This document shows positions 15,389 to 36,509 of a stretch of DNA of 59,340 nt, piece after piece. Below the pieces are notes generated by a model, which worked only from the letters and a program-made list of their open reading frames with translations, had not been told where the DNA came from and ran no database searches. Each line of letters opens with the position of its first letter. Within the stretch, counting starts at the first letter, position 1. The stretch is taken from positions 1 to 59,340 of IMG/VR virus record IMGVR_UViG_3300038455_000058. One strand, given 5' to 3'. The position numbers and the translations under genes are program-made. The DNA comes from a virus (Duplodnaviria; Caudoviricetes).

Positions 15389-15711
15389 ATGAGTTTCGAG
15401 TACGGATCGATTTGAACGGCGCCTACTACTGGCTCCATCCGATCGAATTCGAAGACACCGACGTCTCCGAGACACTCGAGGCGTGGAAGGGCGCGCTGGA
15501 TGTTGTCCAGTCCCTTCGCAATGAAACAGTCTTCCGCATGCTGGACGACAACAAGCCGGACTTGACTGGGCTGTGGGCTGATTTGTACGTCGAGCGCGAG
15601 ATACCGCACCGCGGACCGTGGTCAACGATCGCGCTGGTGGAGACGGCTGAGGAAGAGGACGAGCCGGACACCGTTGTGACGGACGGTCCGCTGTTTGGTG
15701 GTGCGCCGTGA
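15385..15711 (+). CDS. Hypothetical acidic protein
   Basis: ATGA coupling; MNEFRVRID... Confidence 0.5.
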   Translation: MNEFRVRIDLNGAYYWLHPIEFEDTDVSETLEAWKGALDVVQSLRNETVFRMLDDNKPDLTGLWADLYVEREIPHRGPWSTIALVETAEEEDEPDTVVTDGPLFGGAP

Positions 15712-16073
15712 AGGGCTCGGACCTCCTTGCCGCCTACCTCGCGCGCTACGCCATCACGCCGGCTCATGCGGCATCGGCGCTGGTGACGACGGTCGGTGAG
15801 ATTCGGCGCCTACTCAGCGCAGTTGACGCGCCAAGCGAAGTGATGGCGGACCGCATCGAAGACTGGAGCGGCGGTGCAGTGCCAGCGTCTTCGTGGTGGA
15901 CCGAAGAGCCGCCAGCGATGACGTACCGCGAGATCGGAGATGAGCTCGGTCTCAGCGATGAGCGGGTGAGGCAGATCGAATCGGTAGCGCTATCGAAGCT
16001 TCGCCACAACGCAGCGCTGCGCGCGGCGTGGTTATCCTCGGACGGGGTGGAGTGGAGATCCAGATGGGAATAG
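15708..16073 (+). CDS. Cro-like HTH fused to sigma70 region-4 HTH
   Basis: IEDWSGGAVPASSW; MTYREIGDELGLSDERVRQIESVALSKLR. Confidence 0.75.
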   Translation: MKGSDLLAAYLARYAITPAHAASALVTTVGEIRRLLSAVDAPSEVMADRIEDWSGGAVPASSWWTEEPPAMTYREIGDELGLSDERVRQIESVALSKLRHNAALRAAWLSSDGVEWRSRWE

Positions 16074-17902
16074 CTGAGGTGCTGGCGGGGACTGAGAGGT
16101 GGTGGGTGGAGCATGGGGACTGTCTCCGCACGATGAAGACCTTACCCGATGCCTCGGTTGACGCGATCGTTTGCGATCCGCCGGCAGGCATTGCCTTCAT
16201 GGGTAAAGCATGGGACGGCGATAAGGGCGGCAGAGACAGGTGGATCGAGTGGCTCCACGCCAGGATGCGCGAAGCCATCCGCGTCCTCAAACCCGGCGGA
16301 CACGCCCTCGTGTGGGCCCTGCCGCGCACGTCGCACTGGACCGCGACGGCTATCGAGGACGCGGGGTTCGAGGTGAGGGACTGCTTGACTCATTTGTTCG
16401 GGTCAGGCTTCCCCAAGTCGCTGAACGTGTCGAGGGCGATCGACGCGGCCGATGGGTTGAAGGACAAGCGCGAGGTCATCTCGACGTACACGGCCGGCGG
16501 CAATGCCGGCGTCTCGACCGCCGACAAGGGCGGAACGTATGGCGTTGGTGTCGGTACCGCGCCAGCAGTGGAACTCGCCATTACGCGCGGCGCGTCCGAG
16601 CGCTCCCGTGAATGGGACGGCTGGGGCACCGCCCTCAAGCCAGCATCCGAGCATTGGTGGCTGGCGCGCAAGCCCCTGGCCGGGACCGTGGCTTCGAACG
16701 TGCTCGCGTATGGGACGGGGGCCCTGAACGTGGACGGGTGCAGGATCGGGACGGACTGGTCCGAGCGGTCCGAGGCGTGGAAGCGGTCGGGACACTCTGC
16801 CAAGCCTGACGCCGAGAAGATTGCTGCCCCGCCTGGCACGGGCATCAACTGTCATGAGCTCGGCCGCTGGCCCGCGAACGTTACCCTCGACGAGGACGCC
16901 GCGGCGATGCTCGATGAGCAGAGCGGGACGCTCAAGAACGGCGGTCAGAATGCGACGAGCAATCGGAAGTCCGAGTCCGTCGCGCATGGCGAGTATGCCG
17001 ACAGCAAGCCTACCGCGCACGCTGGTGACTCCGGCGGTGCGTCCCGTTTCTTCTACGTGGCCAAGCCCTCGACCAAGGAGGAAAGCGAATGGGAAAGCGG
17101 GGACCTAAGCCGACAAGACCAGACGGGTGTCACGTCACCAAGAAGGGATATCTCAGGAAGAACGTCGATGGCGGCACAAGGCTCAAGCTCCAGCACCACA
17201 TTGTGTGGGAAGAGCACTATGGGCCAGTGCCAGCTGGATATCGCGTCCACCACAAGAACGAAGACAAGCAAGACAACAGAACCGACAACCTCCAACTTGT
17301 CGACTCAGTTACCCACAAGCGAATCCATTCTGGATGCGAATTGCGAGACGGCGTGTGGTGGAAGCCGTGCAGAGTCTGCGGAGAATTCAAGTCCGTCGGT
17401 GGAGAGCACTGGTACCTCTCCATCGAGGGATGGCCCCTCTACGGGAAGTGCAAGCTCTGCCATCGCGCCCGCGTGGCAGCCGACTATCGTAGGCGCAAGG
17501 TTCCTGTATCGGGCTAAGCCGTCCACGCGAGAGAGGGAGGCCGGCTGCGATGCACTCCCGCTTGTCTCAGCCGGCAATCTTGTGGACCGAGAGGAGGGCG
17601 CTCCGGGCACACAGTCTCCGCGCGCGGGAGCAGGTAGGACGTCGGCCGGGCGTCGCAATTCGCATCCAACCTGCAAATCCATCGCCCTCATGCGGTGGCT
17701 GGTCCGCCTTGTGACCCCGCCCGGGGGGCTCGTCCTGGATCCGTTCTGCGGCTCCGGGACGACGGGGTGTGCGGCGGCATTAGAGCGCTTTCGGTTCATC
17801 GGCATCGACGAAAACGAGGACTATGTGCGCATTGCGAACGCCCGCATTGCCTACTGGGCTCAGCCGCGCCAACAGGCGGCACTATTCGAGGTGTCGAGAT
17901 GA
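16064..17902 (+). CDS. Beta-class N4/N6 DNA methyltransferase with 151-codon insert
   Basis: GDCL, DPPA (motif IV variant), RVLKPGG, HPTCK, VLDPFCGSGTTG (motif I). Confidence 0.9.
   Translation: MGIAEVLAGTERWWVEHGDCLRTMKTLPDASVDAIVCDPPAGIAFMGKAWDGDKGGRDRWIEWLHARMREAIRVLKPGGHALVWALPRTSHWTATAIEDAGFEVRDCLTHLFGSGFPKSLNVSRAIDAADGLKDKREVISTYTAGGNAGVSTADKGGTYGVGVGTAPAVELAITRGASERSREWDGWGTALKPASEHWWLARKPLAGTVASNVLAYGTGALNVDGCRIGTDWSERSEAWKRSGHSAKPDAEKIAAPPGTGINCHELGRWPANVTLDEDAAAMLDEQSGTLKNGGQNATSNRKSESVAHGEYADSKPTAHAGDSGGASRFFYVAKPSTKEESEWESGDLSRQDQTGVTSPRRDISGRTSMAAQGSSSSTTLCGKSTMGQCQLDIASTTRTKTSKTTEPTTSNLSTQLPTSESILDANCETACGGSRAESAENSSPSVESTGTSPSRDGPSTGSASSAIAPAWQPTIVGARFLYRAKPSTREREAGCDALPLVSAGNLVDREEGAPGTQSPRAGAGRTSAGRRNSHPTCKSIALMRWLVRLVTPPGGLVLDPFCGSGTTGCAAALERFRFIGIDENEDYVRIANARIAYWAQPRQQAALFEVSR
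17089..17517 (+). CDS. HNH homing endonuclease nested out of frame in methyltransferase
   Basis: AAGGAGG SD; H..VWEEH.GPVP.GY.VHHKNEDKQDNRTDNLQL...H; C-terminal CRVC/CKLC. Confidence 0.85.
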   Translation: MGKRGPKPTRPDGCHVTKKGYLRKNVDGGTRLKLQHHIVWEEHYGPVPAGYRVHHKNEDKQDNRTDNLQLVDSVTHKRIHSGCELRDGVWWKPCRVCGEFKSVGGEHWYLSIEGWPLYGKCKLCHRARVAADYRRRKVPVSG

Positions 17903-18312
17903 CCACCCAACTAGGCCCCGTCGAGGAGTTCATCCTGACCGAGGCGAGGCGGCGCCTGTCTGACGGTGCGGACGTCTATGGTGCGTGGCCGGAGGACGAC
18001 CAACGCGATCTGACACTCGAAGCGAACGCGGAGCTTGTCGATTGTCTGCACTACTCGCTCGCCGAGATTCGCCAGCTACGCCGTCAGGTCCGCGACCTCC
18101 AATCCGACTCCACTTCCAAGCTGGAGGAGAACCGGACCCAACGCACCACGATCGCCGAGCTCCGCGCCGGCAACGAGGCGCTGATGCGTGCATTGCGCGA
18201 GAGAGACGAGACGATTGCGCACCTGGAGCACGAGCTGGCAAGCGCCAGCGCGCTGCTTTTCACGGAGGCGGAGATCGAGTCACAACCCGAGCCGGAGATG
18301 GAGTTGCCATGA
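17899..18312 (+). CDS. MazG-like/dNTP pyrophosphatase-like protein with coiled coil
   Basis: R...G...YG...EANAELVD..HY. Confidence 0.55.
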   Translation: MTTQLGPVEEFILTEARRRLSDGADVYGAWPEDDQRDLTLEANAELVDCLHYSLAEIRQLRRQVRDLQSDSTSKLEENRTQRTTIAELRAGNEALMRALRERDETIAHLEHELASASALLFTEAEIESQPEPEMELP

Positions 18313-18587
18313 AAGATAGCGATAGAGCCGCCATCCTCGCGCTGGCGTACGGCGTTTCGCAGCCCATCCGCGTGATCGGGCAAGCTCTCCTCAGGATCCA
18401 CGAGGAGCTTGAGTGCTTCGCCGAGTCCCTCTCCGTCGAGTCCACTGAGACCGCCAAGGAGTGCCAGACGATACCTGCGCCGCCGCCTGAGGTGCTTGCC
18501 GATCCTGACGGGTGGGTGGCGGATGGCGAGGCATTGAGACGCAAAGATTGGGAGAGCTACCTAGTTCCCAGGGTGAGTGAGAGATGA
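18309..18587 (+). CDS. Hypothetical protein
   Basis: ATGA coupling both sides. Confidence 0.5.
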   Translation: MKDSDRAAILALAYGVSQPIRVIGQALLRIHEELECFAESLSVESTETAKECQTIPAPPPEVLADPDGWVADGEALRRKDWESYLVPRVSER

Positions 18588-18967
18588 CCGACTCGAGCAT
18601 TCGCGAGGCGTTCCGCAAGATGCAGCGCCAAGTCTACGCCCTCGCCGCAGAGAAGGGGTGGCACCCGGATGGTAGGGCGGACACGCCGGACAAGATTGCG
18701 GATTACGTGCCTCGCGCCGTCGCCAACCTTCATGGCGAGATGTCCGAGCTGTGGGAGGCATACCGCGCAGGCAAGCTTTACGAGCCGTGCGACAAGGCGG
18801 ACCGCATGGAGGAGCCGCTCACGTGCCTGGAGGAGGAGCTCGCTGATATCGGGATCCGATTGATGGATGGGGCAGAGAAGCTTGGCGTGGACCTGGGTAG
18901 GGCCATCGCGATTAAGCATTCCTACAACTCTGTGAGGCCGCATCGCCACGGCGGGAAGTTGGCCTGA
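18584..18967 (+). CDS. MazG-like NTP pyrophosphohydrolase
   Basis: [35 protein letters not shown]. Confidence 0.85.
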
Positions 18968-19467
18968 TGCCACGCAAAGCAAAGCCTACAGAATCTAGGT
19001 TCTGGCCCAAGGTGGAGAAGTCTGACGGTTGCTGGGCCTGGATTGGCGGAACATTCAAGCGCTCTGGGTATGGTGCCTTCAATGACACGACTAGGGTAGT
19101 TACGGCACACAGAAAGTCCTGGGAACTGCACTTCGGCGAGGTCCCTTCTGGTCTATTCGTGCTGCACAAGTGCGACAACCGCGTGTGCGTTAATCCAGAG
19201 CACCTATTTCTTGGAACTCACGCAGACAACATGGCCGACATTGGTGCCAAGGGGCGAGCTAGATCAGCAACACTGTCTCGCGATGAAATCGAGTCAATAC
19301 CGTTGTCGCGGGCCAGCGGTGAGTCATTGGCCACCATATCCGAGCGCCTGGGCGTGTCTAAGCAAGCCGTCTGCTACTGGATCAAGAAGCTTAGCGGTAG
19401 GGCTACGAGGCGTCGTAGCAGTTTTAATGCCACACGGACACACCGCCATGGCGGAAAGGTTGCCTAG
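18967..19467 (+). CDS. HNH homing endonuclease with C-terminal HTH
   Basis: RFWPKVEK...[31 protein letters not shown]. Confidence 0.9.
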
Positions 19468-19469
19468 AT

Positions 19470-20561
19470 ATGGACATCACAGTTGCACGTAAAGACCTGC
19501 TGCGCCTCGTGGGTCGCTGTCAGGGTGTCGCGGACAAGAAGAGCGCGATGCCCATGCTGGCAAACGCGTTGCTGGCGGCGGAGAGTGACTCGCTCCGCGT
19601 GAGCGCCACGGACTTGTATCTCAGCGTGTCCGGCTCCTGTGATGCCGAGGCGGCTAAGCCAGGTACCATCGCCGTCCCCGCCAAGGACCTCATGGAGCGC
19701 ATCAAGATGATGCCCGATGGTCCTGTGCGGCTCACCGCAAAGGACTGCAAGCTGACGCTGAAGGCTGTTGGCGCGGCTCGGCGGTACACGCTGCAAGGGA
19801 TGCCGGGGGAGGAGTTTCCGAAGCTGGCAGCGCCCGCCGGGCGCGCGATGGAGTTGCAGACTGACGCGTTCCTGAGCCTCATCGATCGGACGGCCTTCAG
19901 CATCTCGCCGGACGAGACCAGGGCACACGTCAACTCGGCGCTCCTGGAGCTCCGCTCCGCATCGTGCCTCATGGTCACCACCGATGGGCACCGCCTGTCC
20001 AAGTGCGAGGTTGGGATGCCCGATTCGGGACCTGATGACCACTGCCAGCTGTTGCTACCCAAGCGCGCCGTGGACGAGATCAAGCGCCTACTGGACACGG
20101 ACTCTGGGACTTTCACGTTCTCCACCGAGGGACCGTACGCGTTCTTTGCGGTCGATGGCTTCCAGTTCGCCTGCAAGCTCACCGACGCCAACTTCCCGCC
20201 CTACGCACAAGTCATCCCGAAGACCACCGCAAACAAGCTGACCGCGCCTCGCGCATTGCTTGCCGACGCCCTCCGTGCCGTCTCGCTGGCGTCGAGTGAC
20301 GGGACGGGCGGCGTCAAGCTCACGATCGAGCCGGATAAGCTGACCGTCACCGCCGAAAGTCCAGACAGCGGCAACGCGTCGGACGAGGTGGCGGTGGTGA
20401 GCTCGGGCAAGGGCGTTATCGGCGTCAACGCGCGGTACGTGCTCGATGTGCTTGGGTGTCTCGAGTGCGAGGAGGTGGAGGTTGGGTTTGGGGGTGAGCT
20501 GGATCCGGTGGTGATTCGGGATGGTGAATATGTGGCGGTTGTGATGCCGATGAGGGTGTGA
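19470..20561 (+). CDS. dnaN: DNA polymerase III beta sliding clamp
   Basis: Full length 363 aa; ATDL, EFP, VTTDGHRL, FPPY.QVIP, VVMPMRV. Confidence 0.95.
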   Translation: MDITVARKDLLRLVGRCQGVADKKSAMPMLANALLAAESDSLRVSATDLYLSVSGSCDAEAAKPGTIAVPAKDLMERIKMMPDGPVRLTAKDCKLTLKAVGAARRYTLQGMPGEEFPKLAAPAGRAMELQTDAFLSLIDRTAFSISPDETRAHVNSALLELRSASCLMVTTDGHRLSKCEVGMPDSGPDDHCQLLLPKRAVDEIKRLLDTDSGTFTFSTEGPYAFFAVDGFQFACKLTDANFPPYAQVIPKTTANKLTAPRALLADALRAVSLASSDGTGGVKLTIEPDKLTVTAESPDSGNASDEVAVVSSGKGVIGVNARYVLDVLGCLECEEVEVGFGGELDPVVIRDGEYVAVVMPMRV

Positions 20562-35975: not shown

Positions 35976-36509
35976 ATGTGCCCAGTTGACGGTTGCGATC
36001 GTGTCGCTCGCGTCCGCGGTTTCTGCCACAAGCACTACTATGCAAAGCGGCGTTCCGGCGAGCTCCAGCTTATTTGTCGCCCTGTGAACTGTCTGGTTGA
36101 TGGATGCGAATCTAAGCCCAGGGGGCTAGGGTATTGCAGAAAGCACTATCAGAGGGTTAAGGTTCACGGAGATCCGAGCATCACACTTAGGGCGCCCCGT
36201 GGTGCCGGCAGAATAGACCCCTGTGGGTACAGGGAAGTATATCGCCCAGGTCATCCGAACGCAAATGTGTCTGGGTATGCCCGAGAACACAGGGTGGTGA
36301 TGTCAGAGGTGCTCGGCAGAGCCCTAATGGACCACGAAGTCGTCCATCACCTCAACGGCATAAGATCCGACAACCGACCAGAGAACCTAGAGCTTTGGAG
36401 CATCGGTCAACCTCCTGGGCAGAGGGTATCGGATAAGCTGGAGTGGGCCAGAGACTTCGTGATCCAGTATGGTAACGGGGTCGTGCATGACCACGACTAC
36501 GTTTGGTGA
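35976..36509 (+). CDS. HNH homing endonuclease between terL and portal
   Basis: Two C..DGC...G.C.KHY repeats; EHR.VM...VHHLNGIRSDNRPENLELW. Confidence 0.9.
   Translation: MCPVDGCDRVARVRGFCHKHYYAKRRSGELQLICRPVNCLVDGCESKPRGLGYCRKHYQRVKVHGDPSITLRAPRGAGRIDPCGYREVYRPGHPNANVSGYAREHRVVMSEVLGRALMDHEVVHHLNGIRSDNRPENLELWSIGQPPGQRVSDKLEWARDFVIQYGNGVVHDHDYVW

What the first reader, a model, noticed from the sequence alone, without database searches (positions are those of the whole stretch)
17041..17540. HNH endonuclease overprinted inside an intact methyltransferase gene: intron/intein-free, frame-neutral homing
Seen: a complete HNH ORF (17089-17517) lies in another frame within the MTase ORF, and the MTase frame stays open. 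The insert is bounded by a duplicated, recoded motif, RFFYVAKPSTKE and RFLYRAKPSTRE, whose Lys codons are at 17063 and 17516, 453 nt (151 codons) apart. The first copy supplies the HNH SD (AAGGAGG) and the second contains its TAA. In the MTase frame the insert is a Ser/Thr-rich linker with no intein C/HN ends and no room for an intron core. All four HNH Leu/Val codons preceding an A-initial codon avoid NTG/NTA (gtc-acc, ctc-agg, ctc-aag, gtt-acc), as expected if MTase-frame stops are purged. Inference: a selfish element that stays harmless by double coding (a tolerated disordered loop, or ribosomal bypass between matched motifs). This is the best candidate for an undescribed system here.
Basis: partly seen in the sequence, partly recalled or inferred. 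Interest (0 to 1): 0.9.

Follow-up and report, generated by a model that had tools for sequence, protein, structure and literature searches.

The report
Hidden HNH nuclease inside methylase gene
A small selfish nuclease gene sits in a shifted reading frame inside a phage DNA-methylase gene without breaking it; the arrangement is real and evolutionarily maintained, but this kind of element was first described in 2025.

Summary
A 142-aa HNH_3 ORF (17089-17517) with its own AAGGAGG-N7-ATG lies in the third frame of a 624-aa PF01555 DNA methyltransferase ORF (16028-17902), which stays open. The 453-nt low-GC insert is bounded by two diverged copies of the RFFY.AKPST.E motif.

Relatives decide it. 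Of 82 homologous HNH genes (81 IMG/VR loci plus the window), all 64 inside an unbroken methylase ORF have no stop in that frame. All 18 outside one have 1-14 stops. Joint chance over 33 non-redundant clusters is about 1e-30. In 432 of 432 pairs the HNH frame is the better conserved.

No intein, intron or bypass signal was found. AlphaFold2 models the insert as disordered.

It is not undescribed. Arsenault, Gosselin and Gogarten (Genes 2025) reported the same arrangement, the ShiLan domain, in the same methylase family. It shares the phase, the terminal TAA and the flank mimicry.

New here: another site, another HNH_3 subclade, a canonical ribosome-binding site, and a large metagenomic clade that is also free-standing or intein-lodged.

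Verdict: new member of a known kind.

The parts
16028..17902 (+). DNA methyltransferase ORF (PF01555, beta-class N6/N4 type; 624 aa from GTG 16028, 612 aa from ATG 16064 = P0001), open through the insert
   Evidence: alignment with empty alleles
17045..17080 (+). Copy 1 of the duplicated MTase motif, RFFYVAKPSTKE. Its last codons (AAG GAG) form most of the HNH ribosome-binding site
   Evidence: nearest homologues P0002, P0062 and P0107 read SRFFYVAKP(S/T)..ER. once
17075..17081 (+). Shine-Dalgarno sequence AAGGAGG, 7 nt upstream of the HNH ATG
   Evidence: script
17089..17517 (+). HNH_3 homing-endonuclease-like ORF, 142 aa, in the third frame of the MTase (HNH codon starts one base before an MTase codon)
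   Evidence: all 22 invariant residues kept, including H54 H55 N63 N67 H76 H80 and C94, C97, C121, C124; AF2 pLDDT 92; top fold match I-HmuI
17081..17497 (+). MTase-frame read-through of the cassette: a Ser/Thr-rich stretch of about 139 codons between the two motif copies, predicted disordered
   Evidence: AF2 pLDDT below 50 for residues 338-478 of P0001; low GC
17498..17533 (+). Copy 2 of the motif, RFLYRAKPSTRE. It holds the HNH stop TAA (17515-17517) across its Ala-Lys codons and is the copy AF2 builds into the fold (strand 479-482)

Best explanation
This is a 'hidden' out-of-frame HNH homing-endonuclease cassette of the ShiLan-domain kind, lodged in a phage DNA methyltransferase gene.

Shown: a foreign low-GC cassette of about 420 nt carries a Shine-Dalgarno sequence, an ATG and an intact HNH_3 ORF. 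It interrupts the conserved SRFFY.AKPS..ER motif of a PF01555 methylase. One motif copy lies on each side. The HNH stop codon is built into the downstream copy. The cassette length and phase leave the methylase frame open.

Shown by comparison: in this HNH clade the methylase frame across the nuclease gene is kept free of stops by selection, while only the HNH frame is conserved as protein.

Inferred: ribosomes translating the methylase read straight through. They make a methylase about 151 residues longer, whose extra Ser/Thr-rich segment loops out as a disordered linker. Other ribosomes start at the internal SD/ATG and make the nuclease. The nuclease cuts methylase alleles that lack the cassette. 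Repair copies the cassette in. Because the host gene is not destroyed, the element needs neither RNA nor protein splicing.

The flanking duplication is most simply the footprint of a founding insertion that was homologous on the 3' side and illegitimate on the 5' side. This last point is an inference only.
For: Anatomy.

No rival splicing device: Pfam finds no Hint or intein family in the 624-aa protein. Rfam finds nothing at E <= 1 in 16500-18100. The HNH ORF fills 429 of the 453 nt.

Selection on the open frame: I examined 82 HNH homologues, 81 IMG/VR loci plus the window. All 64 lying inside an unbroken larger ORF have 0 stops in the same relative frame (HNH+1). The third frame of those same 64 has 1-23 stops. 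All 18 lying outside such an ORF have 1-14 stops in HNH+1. At 80% aa identity these are 45 clusters. All 33 embedded clusters are open, and the summed log10 P under each gene's own-codon permutation is -30.0. All 12 non-embedded clusters are closed.

Which frame is the gene: in 432 of 432 pairs of embedded copies with 60-97% HNH identity, HNH-frame identity exceeds MTase-frame identity over the same bases, for example 0.75 against 0.48. The stretch HKRIHSGCELRDGVWWK.C was invariant in the 8-sequence alignment A2; in the 37-sequence A4, HKRIHSGC, K92 and C94 stay invariant.

Host ORFs are methylases: Pfam on 4 host ORFs (L015, the fifth protein scanned there, gave only HNH_3) and motif reading of all 62 host ORFs of 150 aa or more.

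MTase-centred checks: in 80 IMG/VR methylase loci, 6 carry an embedded HNH of this profile, all in the same phase. Five are in one continuous ORF; the sixth, L101, is open across the HNH but has a stop elsewhere. In 54 metagenome loci there are 3 more, all in one ORF.

Structure: the MTase core is confident (198 residues at pLDDT >= 90) and the insert is below 50. The HNH has pLDDT 92.1 and its best PDB fold match is the homing endonuclease I-HmuI, 1u3e, prob 1.00.

Published precedent with the same hallmarks: PMC11855218. I verified this on Filuzino gp74. It has a hidden PF13392 ORF in the same phase and the motif is duplicated as YEPVCVAVKP ... FEPVVVARKP.
Against: For this single locus the open frame is not significant by itself (P = 0.18).

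Nothing shows that either protein is made. No RNA run holds the sequence, and the only DNA run is the probable source, kept as contigs, with no insert-less joint.

No empty allele of this very phage was found, so recent mobility of this copy is not shown.

AF2 cannot say which motif copy is used. The alignment splits the signal between them: copy 1 has pLDDT about 50-60 and copy 2 76-95.

The methylase has DPPA in place of the canonical DPPY. This is shared by its whole subclade, so it is not decay, but activity is untested.

Only 10 of 31 cluster representatives scanned have an SD-like match of 4 nt or more before the chosen start.

Two relatives split the methylase into two ORFs (L062, L065). 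One embedded relative has a truncated HNH (L016). One host methylase has a stop inside its DPP|Y motif (L101 = L047 contig).

The Foldseek E-value to I-HmuI is only 0.025, with no match at E <= 0.001. A profile search of PDB sequences found nothing.
Confidence: 0.75

Rival explanations
1. The methylase is a dead gene. The HNH cassette destroyed it, and the frame is open only because this HNH lineage inherited a stop-free +1 frame from ancestors that lived in inteins or in functional methylases. There has not yet been time for stops to accumulate.
For: The single-locus chance of an open frame is not small (0.18). The motif is duplicated and partly degenerate. The catalytic motif reads DPPA. One related host methylase carries a stop in its DPP|Y motif although its frame is open across the HNH.
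Against: The rest of the 624-aa ORF is intact, with all family motifs, and is 50-67% identical to 60 homologues. DPPA is the consensus of that subclade. AF2 folds the core with high confidence. In 33 independent clusters the frame is open at a joint P of about 1e-30, which needs ongoing selection on read-through.
Confidence: 0.12
2. The HNH is not a homing endonuclease but a working partner of the methylase. It would be a restriction-like or exclusion nuclease that spares methylated DNA. Nesting it in the methylase gene would ensure co-inheritance and coupled expression.
For: The clade is tied to PF01555 methylases of very different subfamilies. Besides the 64 embedded copies, 11 of the 18 others lie directly downstream of a complete methylase-like ORF (motif reading only).
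Against: The insertions lie in or next to the most conserved coding motifs: HxTxKP in 24 of 33 clusters, and Y.AKPS here. Some copies sit in the endonuclease position of inteins inserted in that same motif. Most methylase homologues lack the element; 6 of 80 carry it. On the HNH tree, embedded, intein and free-standing states interleave and need at least 4 changes. All of this is typical of homing elements whose target is the methylase gene itself.
Confidence: 0.08
3. The insert is removed: by an unrecognised intron, by a non-canonical protein-splicing reaction, or by ribosomes hopping from the first motif copy to the second.
For: Matched motif copies flank the insert. The published authors also considered splicing because of this flank mimicry (PMC11855218).
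Against: There is no Rfam hit. Only 24 nt of the 453-nt insert lie outside the HNH ORF. There are no Hint or intein blocks and no Cys/Ser/Thr...HN boundaries. There is no stop codon in the methylase frame, although a stop is what defines the take-off site in T4 gene 60 (recalled). If the insert were removed, selection would not need to keep it stop-free, yet it does.
Confidence: 0.03

Closest known systems
ShiLan domain / hidden out-of-frame HNH in mycobacteriophage DNA methylase (Arsenault, Gosselin & Gogarten, Genes 2025, PMC11855218; Gosselin et al. 2023, PMC9957025)
   Same: Same methylase family: PopTart gp63 and the cluster E phages are tblastn hits of the window's MTase, with listed cluster E identities of 48-49%. 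The insert is stop-free in the methylase frame. A complete HNH (also PF13392) lies in the third frame. The HNH TAA is in the last bases of the insert. The start of the insert mimics the residues just downstream of it. There is no intein or intron. The loop is predicted disordered.
   Different: The site differs: ALKP.FEPV|VVARKP there, SRFFY.AKPS here. The nuclease there is larger (195 aa per the paper; a 184-aa open frame in Filuzino) with extra zinc fingers, and is only 38% identical over 71 aa to ours. There a GTG start and no RBS were reported and leaderless initiation proposed; here there is a canonical AAGGAGG-N7-ATG. The host here is an uncultured wetland-metagenome phage of about 65% GC.
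Pacc40 gp60 insertion and the free-standing HNH next to the methylase in Tiff81 and Sashimi (same paper, section 3.6)
   Same: The nuclease family is found either inside a methylase ORF out of frame or free-standing beside a methylase gene. I see both states in this clade.
   Different: Here the free-standing copies are mostly downstream, not upstream, of the methylase. I did not fetch the Pacc40 sequences.
Inteins whose homing endonuclease is encoded in another frame or on the other strand (bioRxiv 10.1101/2025.01.02.630785; passages read)
   Same: Relatives of the window's HNH (L009-L014, L016, L035, L037, L046) sit in the endonuclease-loop position of an intein, out of frame, with the intein frame open.
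   Different: That preprint reports an endonuclease VII-like enzyme in frame 3, in-frame HNH, and antisense LAGLIDADG/VSR, in polymerase, capsid, terminase and thymidylate synthase. It does not report an out-of-frame HNH_3 in a ParB-methylase. The window itself has no intein.
Free-standing phage homing endonucleases and 'genes in pieces' (T4 seg/mob genes; mobE splitting nrdA in phage Aeh1). Recalled, apart from listings
   Same: An HNH gene without intron or intein spreads by cutting a conserved neighbouring or host gene. L062 and L065 show the split-gene outcome.
   Different: Here the host ORF is neither split nor merely neighbouring. It is read through.
I-HmuI (PDB 1u3e), intron-encoded HNH nicking homing endonuclease of phage SPO1
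   Same: Best structural match of the AF2 model (70 columns, 26% identity, prob 1.00). The ShiLan paper lists the same top hit.
   Different: The match is weak (E 0.025, TM 0.39). Ours lacks the long I-HmuI DNA-binding tail and has a C-terminal CxxC...CxxC unit.

Membership tests
Hidden out-of-frame HNH insertion element (ShiLan-domain kind) | An insertion in a phage DNA methylase relative to uninvaded homologues | tested here: met
   Alignment with empty alleles. Homologues P0002, P0062 and P0107 read SRFFYVAKP(S/T)..ER. once.
Hidden out-of-frame HNH insertion element (ShiLan-domain kind) | No stop codon when the insert is read in the methylase frame, and insert length a multiple of 3 | tested here: met
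   The ORF 16028-17902 is continuous and the repeat distance is 453 nt = 151 codons.
Hidden out-of-frame HNH insertion element (ShiLan-domain kind) | [quoted passage not shown] | tested here: met
   The ATG at 17089 is the third base of an MTase codon. TAA is at 17515-17517, inside copy 2. HNH_3 E 2.7e-16. Filuzino has the same phase.
Hidden out-of-frame HNH insertion element (ShiLan-domain kind) | The sequence at the insert's 5' junction, read in the methylase frame, resembles the methylase residues just 3' of the insert | tested here: met
   RFFYVAKPSTKE against RFLYRAKPSTRE: 9 of 12 aa and 22 of 36 nt identical (counted). The analogue in Filuzino is YEPVCVAVKP against FEPVVVARKP.
Hidden out-of-frame HNH insertion element (ShiLan-domain kind) | Disjunct distribution showing recent transfer between methylases | tested here: inconclusive
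   Clade level: the HNH occurs in at least three methylase subfamilies and at several sites, and states interleave on the tree. For this copy the nearest HNH is only 63-66% identical and no empty sister allele was found.
HNH_3 (PF13392) His-Me finger nuclease | Profile match above the curated cut-off, with catalytic His/Asn/His and zinc-binding Cys kept | tested here: met
   59.4 bits against a cut-off of 24.8. H54 H55 N63 N67 H76 H80 C83 C94 C97 C121 C124 are invariant in 37 sequences.
HNH_3 (PF13392) His-Me finger nuclease | Site-specific DNA cleavage | not testable with these tools
   Needs a biochemical assay.
N6_N4_Mtase (PF01555) DNA methyltransferase | Profile match, a C-terminal F.GSG AdoMet motif and the HxTxKP motif | tested here: met
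   100.6 bits against a cut-off of 26.7. HPTCKS and FCGSGTT are present.
N6_N4_Mtase (PF01555) DNA methyltransferase | Catalytic (D/N/S)PP(Y/F/W) motif (the motif definition is recalled) | tested here: not met
   The motif reads DPPA. This is the consensus of its subclade of 61 aligned proteins (DPPAGI.FMGK.WD), so it is a clade trait and not a lesion. Activity is unknown.
Intein | Hint-domain blocks, N-terminal Cys/Ser, C-terminal His-Asn followed by Cys/Ser/Thr | tested here: not met
   Pfam finds no Hint or intein family in the window protein, whereas relatives L009 and L011 give sub-threshold Hint_2 and Intein_splicing matches backed by visible splicing blocks. The insert starts ...KEESEW and ends ...TIVGA.
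Group I / II intron | A conserved catalytic RNA core | tested here: not met
   cmscan of 16500-18100 at E <= 1 gave 0 matches. Only 24 nt of the insert lie outside the ORF.
Programmed translational bypass (T4 gene 60 type) | A stop codon right after the take-off codon and a short non-coding gap (definition recalled) | tested here: not met
   There is no stop in the methylase frame anywhere in the insert. The gap would be 453 nt.

The most novel reading that the evidence does not exclude
The window's nuclease belongs to one HNH_3 lineage that is specialised on PF01555 methylase genes and has evolved a permanently stop-free +1 frame. The same cassette can therefore live in three interchangeable ways.
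- Free-standing, just downstream of the methylase.
- Read through inside the methylase as a disordered loop. Two AT-rich relatives instead split the methylase into two ORFs.
- Out of frame in the endonuclease loop of an intein that occupies the same HxTxKP target motif.

This would be a natural series linking free-standing homing genes, splicing-free overprinted elements and endonuclease-bearing inteins. The duplicated target motif is seen at three different sites: ShiLan, the window, and TVK(Y/H)...HSTVKP in 8 clusters. It would be the general footprint of a founding insertion that was homologous on one side only.
Probability: 0.45. Interest if true: 0.65.

Novelty: new member of a known kind. 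Interest (0 to 1): 0.45.

Why it matters
Homing endonucleases were long thought to need an intron, an intein or an intergenic site in order to avoid killing their host gene. The 2025 ShiLan report added a fourth way, based on about ten mycobacteriophages and Pacc40. In that way the element sits out of frame inside the gene and leaves the gene's frame open.

This window shows the same trick in an unrelated, uncultured high-GC phage. It uses a different nuclease subclade, a different site and a plain ribosome-binding site.

The relatives gathered here give a first quantitative proof that the open host frame is selected: 64 of 64 against 0 of 18, joint P about 1e-30. They also show that the habit is widespread in environmental phages.

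There is a practical point for annotation. Such methylases look like long proteins with a low-complexity linker, and the nuclease gene inside is missed by gene callers.

Tried and rejected
Codon-pair argument. Tested by three null models. It is too weak alone and was replaced by the comparative test.

Cultured phages. tblastn of the HNH against 50,697 phage records found nothing above 32% identity, and the three hits I opened are free-standing genes. This gave no close cultured relative.

Finding phage ShiLan itself. Neither the P0024 protein search nor the PopTart gene search listed it among the rows shown. I used Filuzino gp74, which carries the same domain, instead.

P0034. This 653-aa homologue has an insert at nearly the window's site that resembles ours in the methylase frame. 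It is probably a second copy of this cassette. Its DNA was not among the IMG/VR loci and the metagenome scan did not return its contig; the best match was 64%. The point is unconfirmed.

Chimeric-methylase idea. I considered an unequal crossover between two alleles with differently placed cassettes. The N and C parts both look closest to P0002-type proteins by eye. There is no support, and I ran no formal test.

Sequencing runs. No RNA holder was listed. The one DNA run is the probable source and is kept as contigs. Laying it gave full cover by one contig and no joint skipping the insert. This is not evidence either way.

Promoter and terminator scan of 15600-18400. It found 0 promoter-like sites and 1 terminator-like site on the minus strand, at the level of the shuffles.

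PDB sequence search with the HNH profile gave 0 hits.

Rows flagged SPLIT by my script. L170 is an artefact of an HSP running past the stop; its ORF is complete. L101 has a real stop at DPP|Y, away from the HNH. L223 was not examined.

Rows left out. Twelve loci with no C-terminal match were not classified (2, 10); the two end at the end of the DNA held, the ten were not examined. For the tree I used 37 of the 82 HNH sequences, namely cluster representatives with a usable start.

Literature on an out-of-frame HNH_3 inside an intein of a ParB-methylase. Three full-text searches found none. The supplements and the GitHub repository of PMC11855218 and of the intein preprint were not available to me and may list such cases, or members of this HNH clade.

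Full report
WHAT IS THERE. The window is an IMG/VR virus record of 59,340 bases, estimated 72% complete. One + strand ORF, 16028-17902 (624 aa; 612 aa from the ATG at 16064, identical to database protein P0001), is a PF01555 N6/N4 DNA methyltransferase (E 1.6e-28). A 142-aa ORF, 17089-17517, in another frame of the same strand is an HNH_3 nuclease (PF13392, E 2.7e-16).

The HNH ATG occupies the third base of a methylase codon. AAGGAGG lies 7 nt upstream at 17075-17081. The TAA at 17515-17517 spans the Ala-Lys codons of the downstream motif copy. GC falls to 54-57% over about 17075-17450, against 61-71% on both sides.

Aligned with uninvaded methylases (Pontimonas phage phiPsal1, Klebsiella phage e270.1), the extra segment lies inside the conserved ...GGASRFFY.AK.S..ER... 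motif. In the window this motif occurs twice, as RFFYVAKPSTKE (17045-17080) and RFLYRAKPSTRE (17498-17533), 453 nt apart.

CHANCE OR SELECTION. For this locus alone the open methylase frame is unremarkable. Permuting the HNH's own synonymous codons leaves the frame open in 18% of trials. Resampling from the window's codon usage does so in 4.5%, and uniform usage in 0.3%. The HNH uses CTC for 7 of 9 Leu everywhere, so avoidance of NTG before A-initial codons is not position-specific (my reading).

The decisive evidence is comparative. Two scans of IMG/VR with the HNH gave 81 loci. With the window that makes 82 HNH genes of 35-65% identity.

In 64 of them the frame HNH+1, the same phase as in the window, is open over the whole HNH match and continues as a large ORF. 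That ORF is 480-950 aa where it is not cut by a contig end. In the other 18 that frame has 1-14 stops. The third frame of the 64 has 1-23 stops.

At 80% amino-acid identity there are 45 clusters. All 33 embedded clusters are open. The summed log10 probability under each gene's own-codon permutation is -30.0. This null is conservative, because codon usage has itself been shaped by the constraint. All 12 non-embedded clusters are closed.

In 432 of 432 pairs of embedded copies with 60-97% HNH identity, the HNH frame is more conserved than the methylase frame over the same nucleotides, for example 0.75 against 0.48. So the nuclease is the protein under purifying selection. The methylase-frame reading of the insert is constrained essentially to be stop-free.

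WHAT THE HOSTS ARE. Pfam on 4 host ORFs and motif reading of all 62 host ORFs of 150 aa or more show PF01555 methylases of at least three subfamilies.

In 24 of 33 clusters the HNH ends within, or at most 12 codons before, the HxTxKP motif. The stop is often built from that motif's codons, such as GT-TAA-G in Val-Lys or CA-TAG-C in His-Ser.

A subgroup (L009-L014, L016, L035, L037, L046; truncated L010, L086, L087) are ParB-methylase fusions carrying a real intein in that same motif (HP|CLCPGS...TGNHPFLV...VWNLSV...SHN|TMKP). They give weak Hint_2 and Intein_splicing matches. There the HNH occupies the intein's endonuclease-loop position, but out of frame.

The window's site, ahead of Y.AKPS, is unique among the 33 clusters. 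L019 and L025, which include the window's nearest relative, sit a few codons further downstream.

THE 18 NON-EMBEDDED COPIES. Eleven lie directly downstream of a complete methylase-like ORF. One lies upstream of one. Four are in other or truncated contexts. In two AT-rich loci (L062, L065) the HNH separates the methylase into two ORFs. These assignments rest on motif reading. So of 66 copies lying within methylase coding sequence, 64 keep one frame and 2 split it.

On a maximum-likelihood tree of 37 representatives, the embedded, intein and free-standing states interleave and need at least 4 changes. The window pairs with L019, with support 93/74.

MTASE-CENTRED CONTROLS. Of the 80 best IMG/VR methylase loci, 76 are one ORF. 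Six carry an embedded HNH of this profile, all in the same phase. One of these, L101, has an unrelated stop in its DPP|Y motif.

Of 54 metagenome loci, 43 are one ORF and 3 carry this HNH, all in phase and unbroken. Other hidden HNH_3 ORFs exist in the other phase (L222, L214, L227). The common phase is therefore a trait of this clade and of the ShiLan type, not a universal rule.

NO SPLICING DEVICE. The window protein has no Hint or intein match. Rfam finds nothing in 16500-18100 at E <= 1. The HNH ORF fills 429 of the 453 nt. With no stop in the methylase frame there is nothing to bypass.

AlphaFold2, run with 61 homologues, folds the methylase core confidently (198 residues at pLDDT >= 90). 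It leaves residues 338-478 (P0001 numbering) below 50. Copy 2 enters the fold as a strand at 479-482. Copy 1 is at pLDDT about 50-60, but the alignment splits the family signal between the two copies, so this does not settle which one is used.

The HNH model has pLDDT 92.1. Its best PDB fold match is the homing endonuclease I-HmuI (1u3e; prob 1.00, but E 0.025). All 22 invariant positions of the clade, including the His/Asn/His and four Cys, are kept in the window's copy.

COMPARISON WITH WHAT IS KNOWN. A full-text search led to Arsenault, Gosselin and Gogarten, Genes 2025 (PMC11855218). I read the abstract, introduction, results, discussion and legends. Its forerunner is PMC9957025, of which I read passages.

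They describe the ShiLan domain, a 202-aa insert in mycobacteriophage methylases of this same family. It is stop-free in the methylase frame. A 195-aa HNH lies in the third frame. TAA is among the last four bases. The first 11 residues mimic the 11 residues downstream. There is no intein or intron, and the loop is predicted to be tolerated. They also report a second case, Pacc40, and related free-standing HNH genes beside methylases.

I verified these hallmarks on Filuzino gp74. Its insert is at ALKPSYEPV|CVAVKP...AFEPV|VVARKP. Its hidden ORF is PF13392, in the same phase, and 38% identical over 71 aa to ours.

A 2025 genome announcement already annotates such an element (PMC12613952; listing only). 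[quoted passage not shown]

The window is thus a new member of a described kind. It differs in its site, its smaller HNH_3 subclade, its canonical SD-ATG (the paper found no RBS and proposed leaderless initiation) and its uncultured high-GC phage host.

THE DUPLICATED MOTIF. The two copies share 9 of 12 residues but only 22 of 36 bases. All five shared four- or six-fold-degenerate codons differ (my count). That fits old or independent origin as well as it fits deliberate recoding.

Copy 1 matches the family consensus through ...AKPST. Copy 2 matches it from AKPST onward. The same mimicry exists at the ShiLan site. It also appears as TVK(Y/H)...HSTVKP in 8 clusters of this clade.

I infer a founding insertion repaired by homology on the 3' side and by end-joining on the 5' side. 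That would duplicate the stretch between the donor's insertion point and the cut. This is a hypothesis, not a result.

MECHANISM, WITH ODDS.
- Parts and overprinting: shown.
- Selection for read-through in the clade: shown.
- The window's methylase is active with a looped-out insert: inferred, about 0.6.
- The HNH is translated from its own SD/ATG: inferred, about 0.75.
- The HNH homes into empty methylase alleles: inferred from family behaviour, about 0.6.
- Overall confidence in the stated explanation: 0.75.

LIMITS. Paper supplements were not seen.

Noticed in passing
window 18967-19467 (+); also 36234-36398 (+): A second, free-standing HNH_3 gene with a C-terminal HTH (166 aa; HNH_3 E 2.9e-15, HTH_23) lies directly upstream of a DNA polymerase III beta-clamp-like ORF (19470-20561; named by my reading, not tested). 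A third weak HNH match lies at about 36.2 kb. The phage carries several homing-type nucleases.
   Followed up: partly
window 16136-16147 (MTase residues CDPPAG): The methylase and its whole subclade (61 aligned proteins; consensus TDPPAGI.FMGK.WD) have DPPA where beta-class methylases normally have DPPY. The aromatic base-stacking residue is missing.
   Followed up: no
L009-L014, L016, L035, L037, L046 (e.g. L011:1715-3754); truncated L010, L086, L087: ParB-methylase fusions with an intein inserted in the HP|TMKP motif. The intein's endonuclease-loop position is filled by an out-of-frame HNH_3 of the window's clade, and the intein frame stays open. I found no report of this HNH type or host in three searches.
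   Followed up: partly
L016:2986-3300: In this intein-lodged copy the HNH frame has a premature stop, losing the last zinc-binding pair, while the methylase/intein frame is still open. This looks like a decaying nuclease inside a still-intact host.
   Followed up: no
L104:1474-1890 (hidden ORF) in MTase ORF L104:290-2176; proteins P0024, P0031, P0058, P0111; left flanks of L021 and L045: A different hidden ORF occupies the same SRFF|..RF.Y.AK site as the window's cassette, in the same phase. It is 139 aa with a zinc ribbon and an HNH-like C-terminus, and its Pfam NinG match is only E 0.0027. Four database methylases have related 150-250-aa inserts there. L021 and L045 appear to carry both this insert and the window-type HNH.
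   Followed up: partly
L222:1892-2698, L214:938-1726, L227:1895-2581: Larger hidden HNH_3 ORFs (229-269 aa) lie inside 693-841-aa methylase ORFs in the other overlapping phase (HNH codon starts one base after an MTase codon). Overprinting is therefore not limited to one phase.
   Followed up: partly
L062:1522-3762 and L065:1656-3845: In two AT-rich phages (the L062 HNH has 27% GC) the HNH separates the methylase into an N-terminal and a C-terminal ORF instead of being read through. This is a 'gene in pieces' outcome.
   Followed up: partly
L101:2560-2580 (same contig as L047): The host methylase reads ...TDPP-TAA-CCC-TAC..., a stop plus one extra codon exactly between DPP and Y of the catalytic motif. 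Its frame across the embedded HNH is still open.
   Followed up: partly
L008, L019, L020, L025, L032 (flanks of the HNH in the MTase frame): A CxC pair just upstream of the HNH start and a CxxCG pair just after its stop are encoded only in the methylase frame (e.g. L020: EPCRCD ... FCPKCGG). They could form a four-Cys zinc clamp that ties the base of the loop together. The window lacks them. My regex scored only L020 as having both; the others are by eye.
   Followed up: no
P0002 (684 aa; 78% identical to the window MTase over 33% of it): It has a single SRFFYVAKPSTRERE motif but carries a roughly 200-aa insert at the ShiLan site (EKWFVAYKPDP...DTWLVRKPLAG). Close methylase alleles thus host different hidden elements at different sites.
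   Followed up: no
L001 (Lilac gp101), L093 (Jebeks gp54-56); rows: Mycobacteriophage methylases of this family show other interruptions. Lilac has an intein-sized in-frame insert after ...WLYG|C. Many Fishburne-like phages have the gene annotated as two methylase ORFs with small ORFs between them.
   Followed up: no
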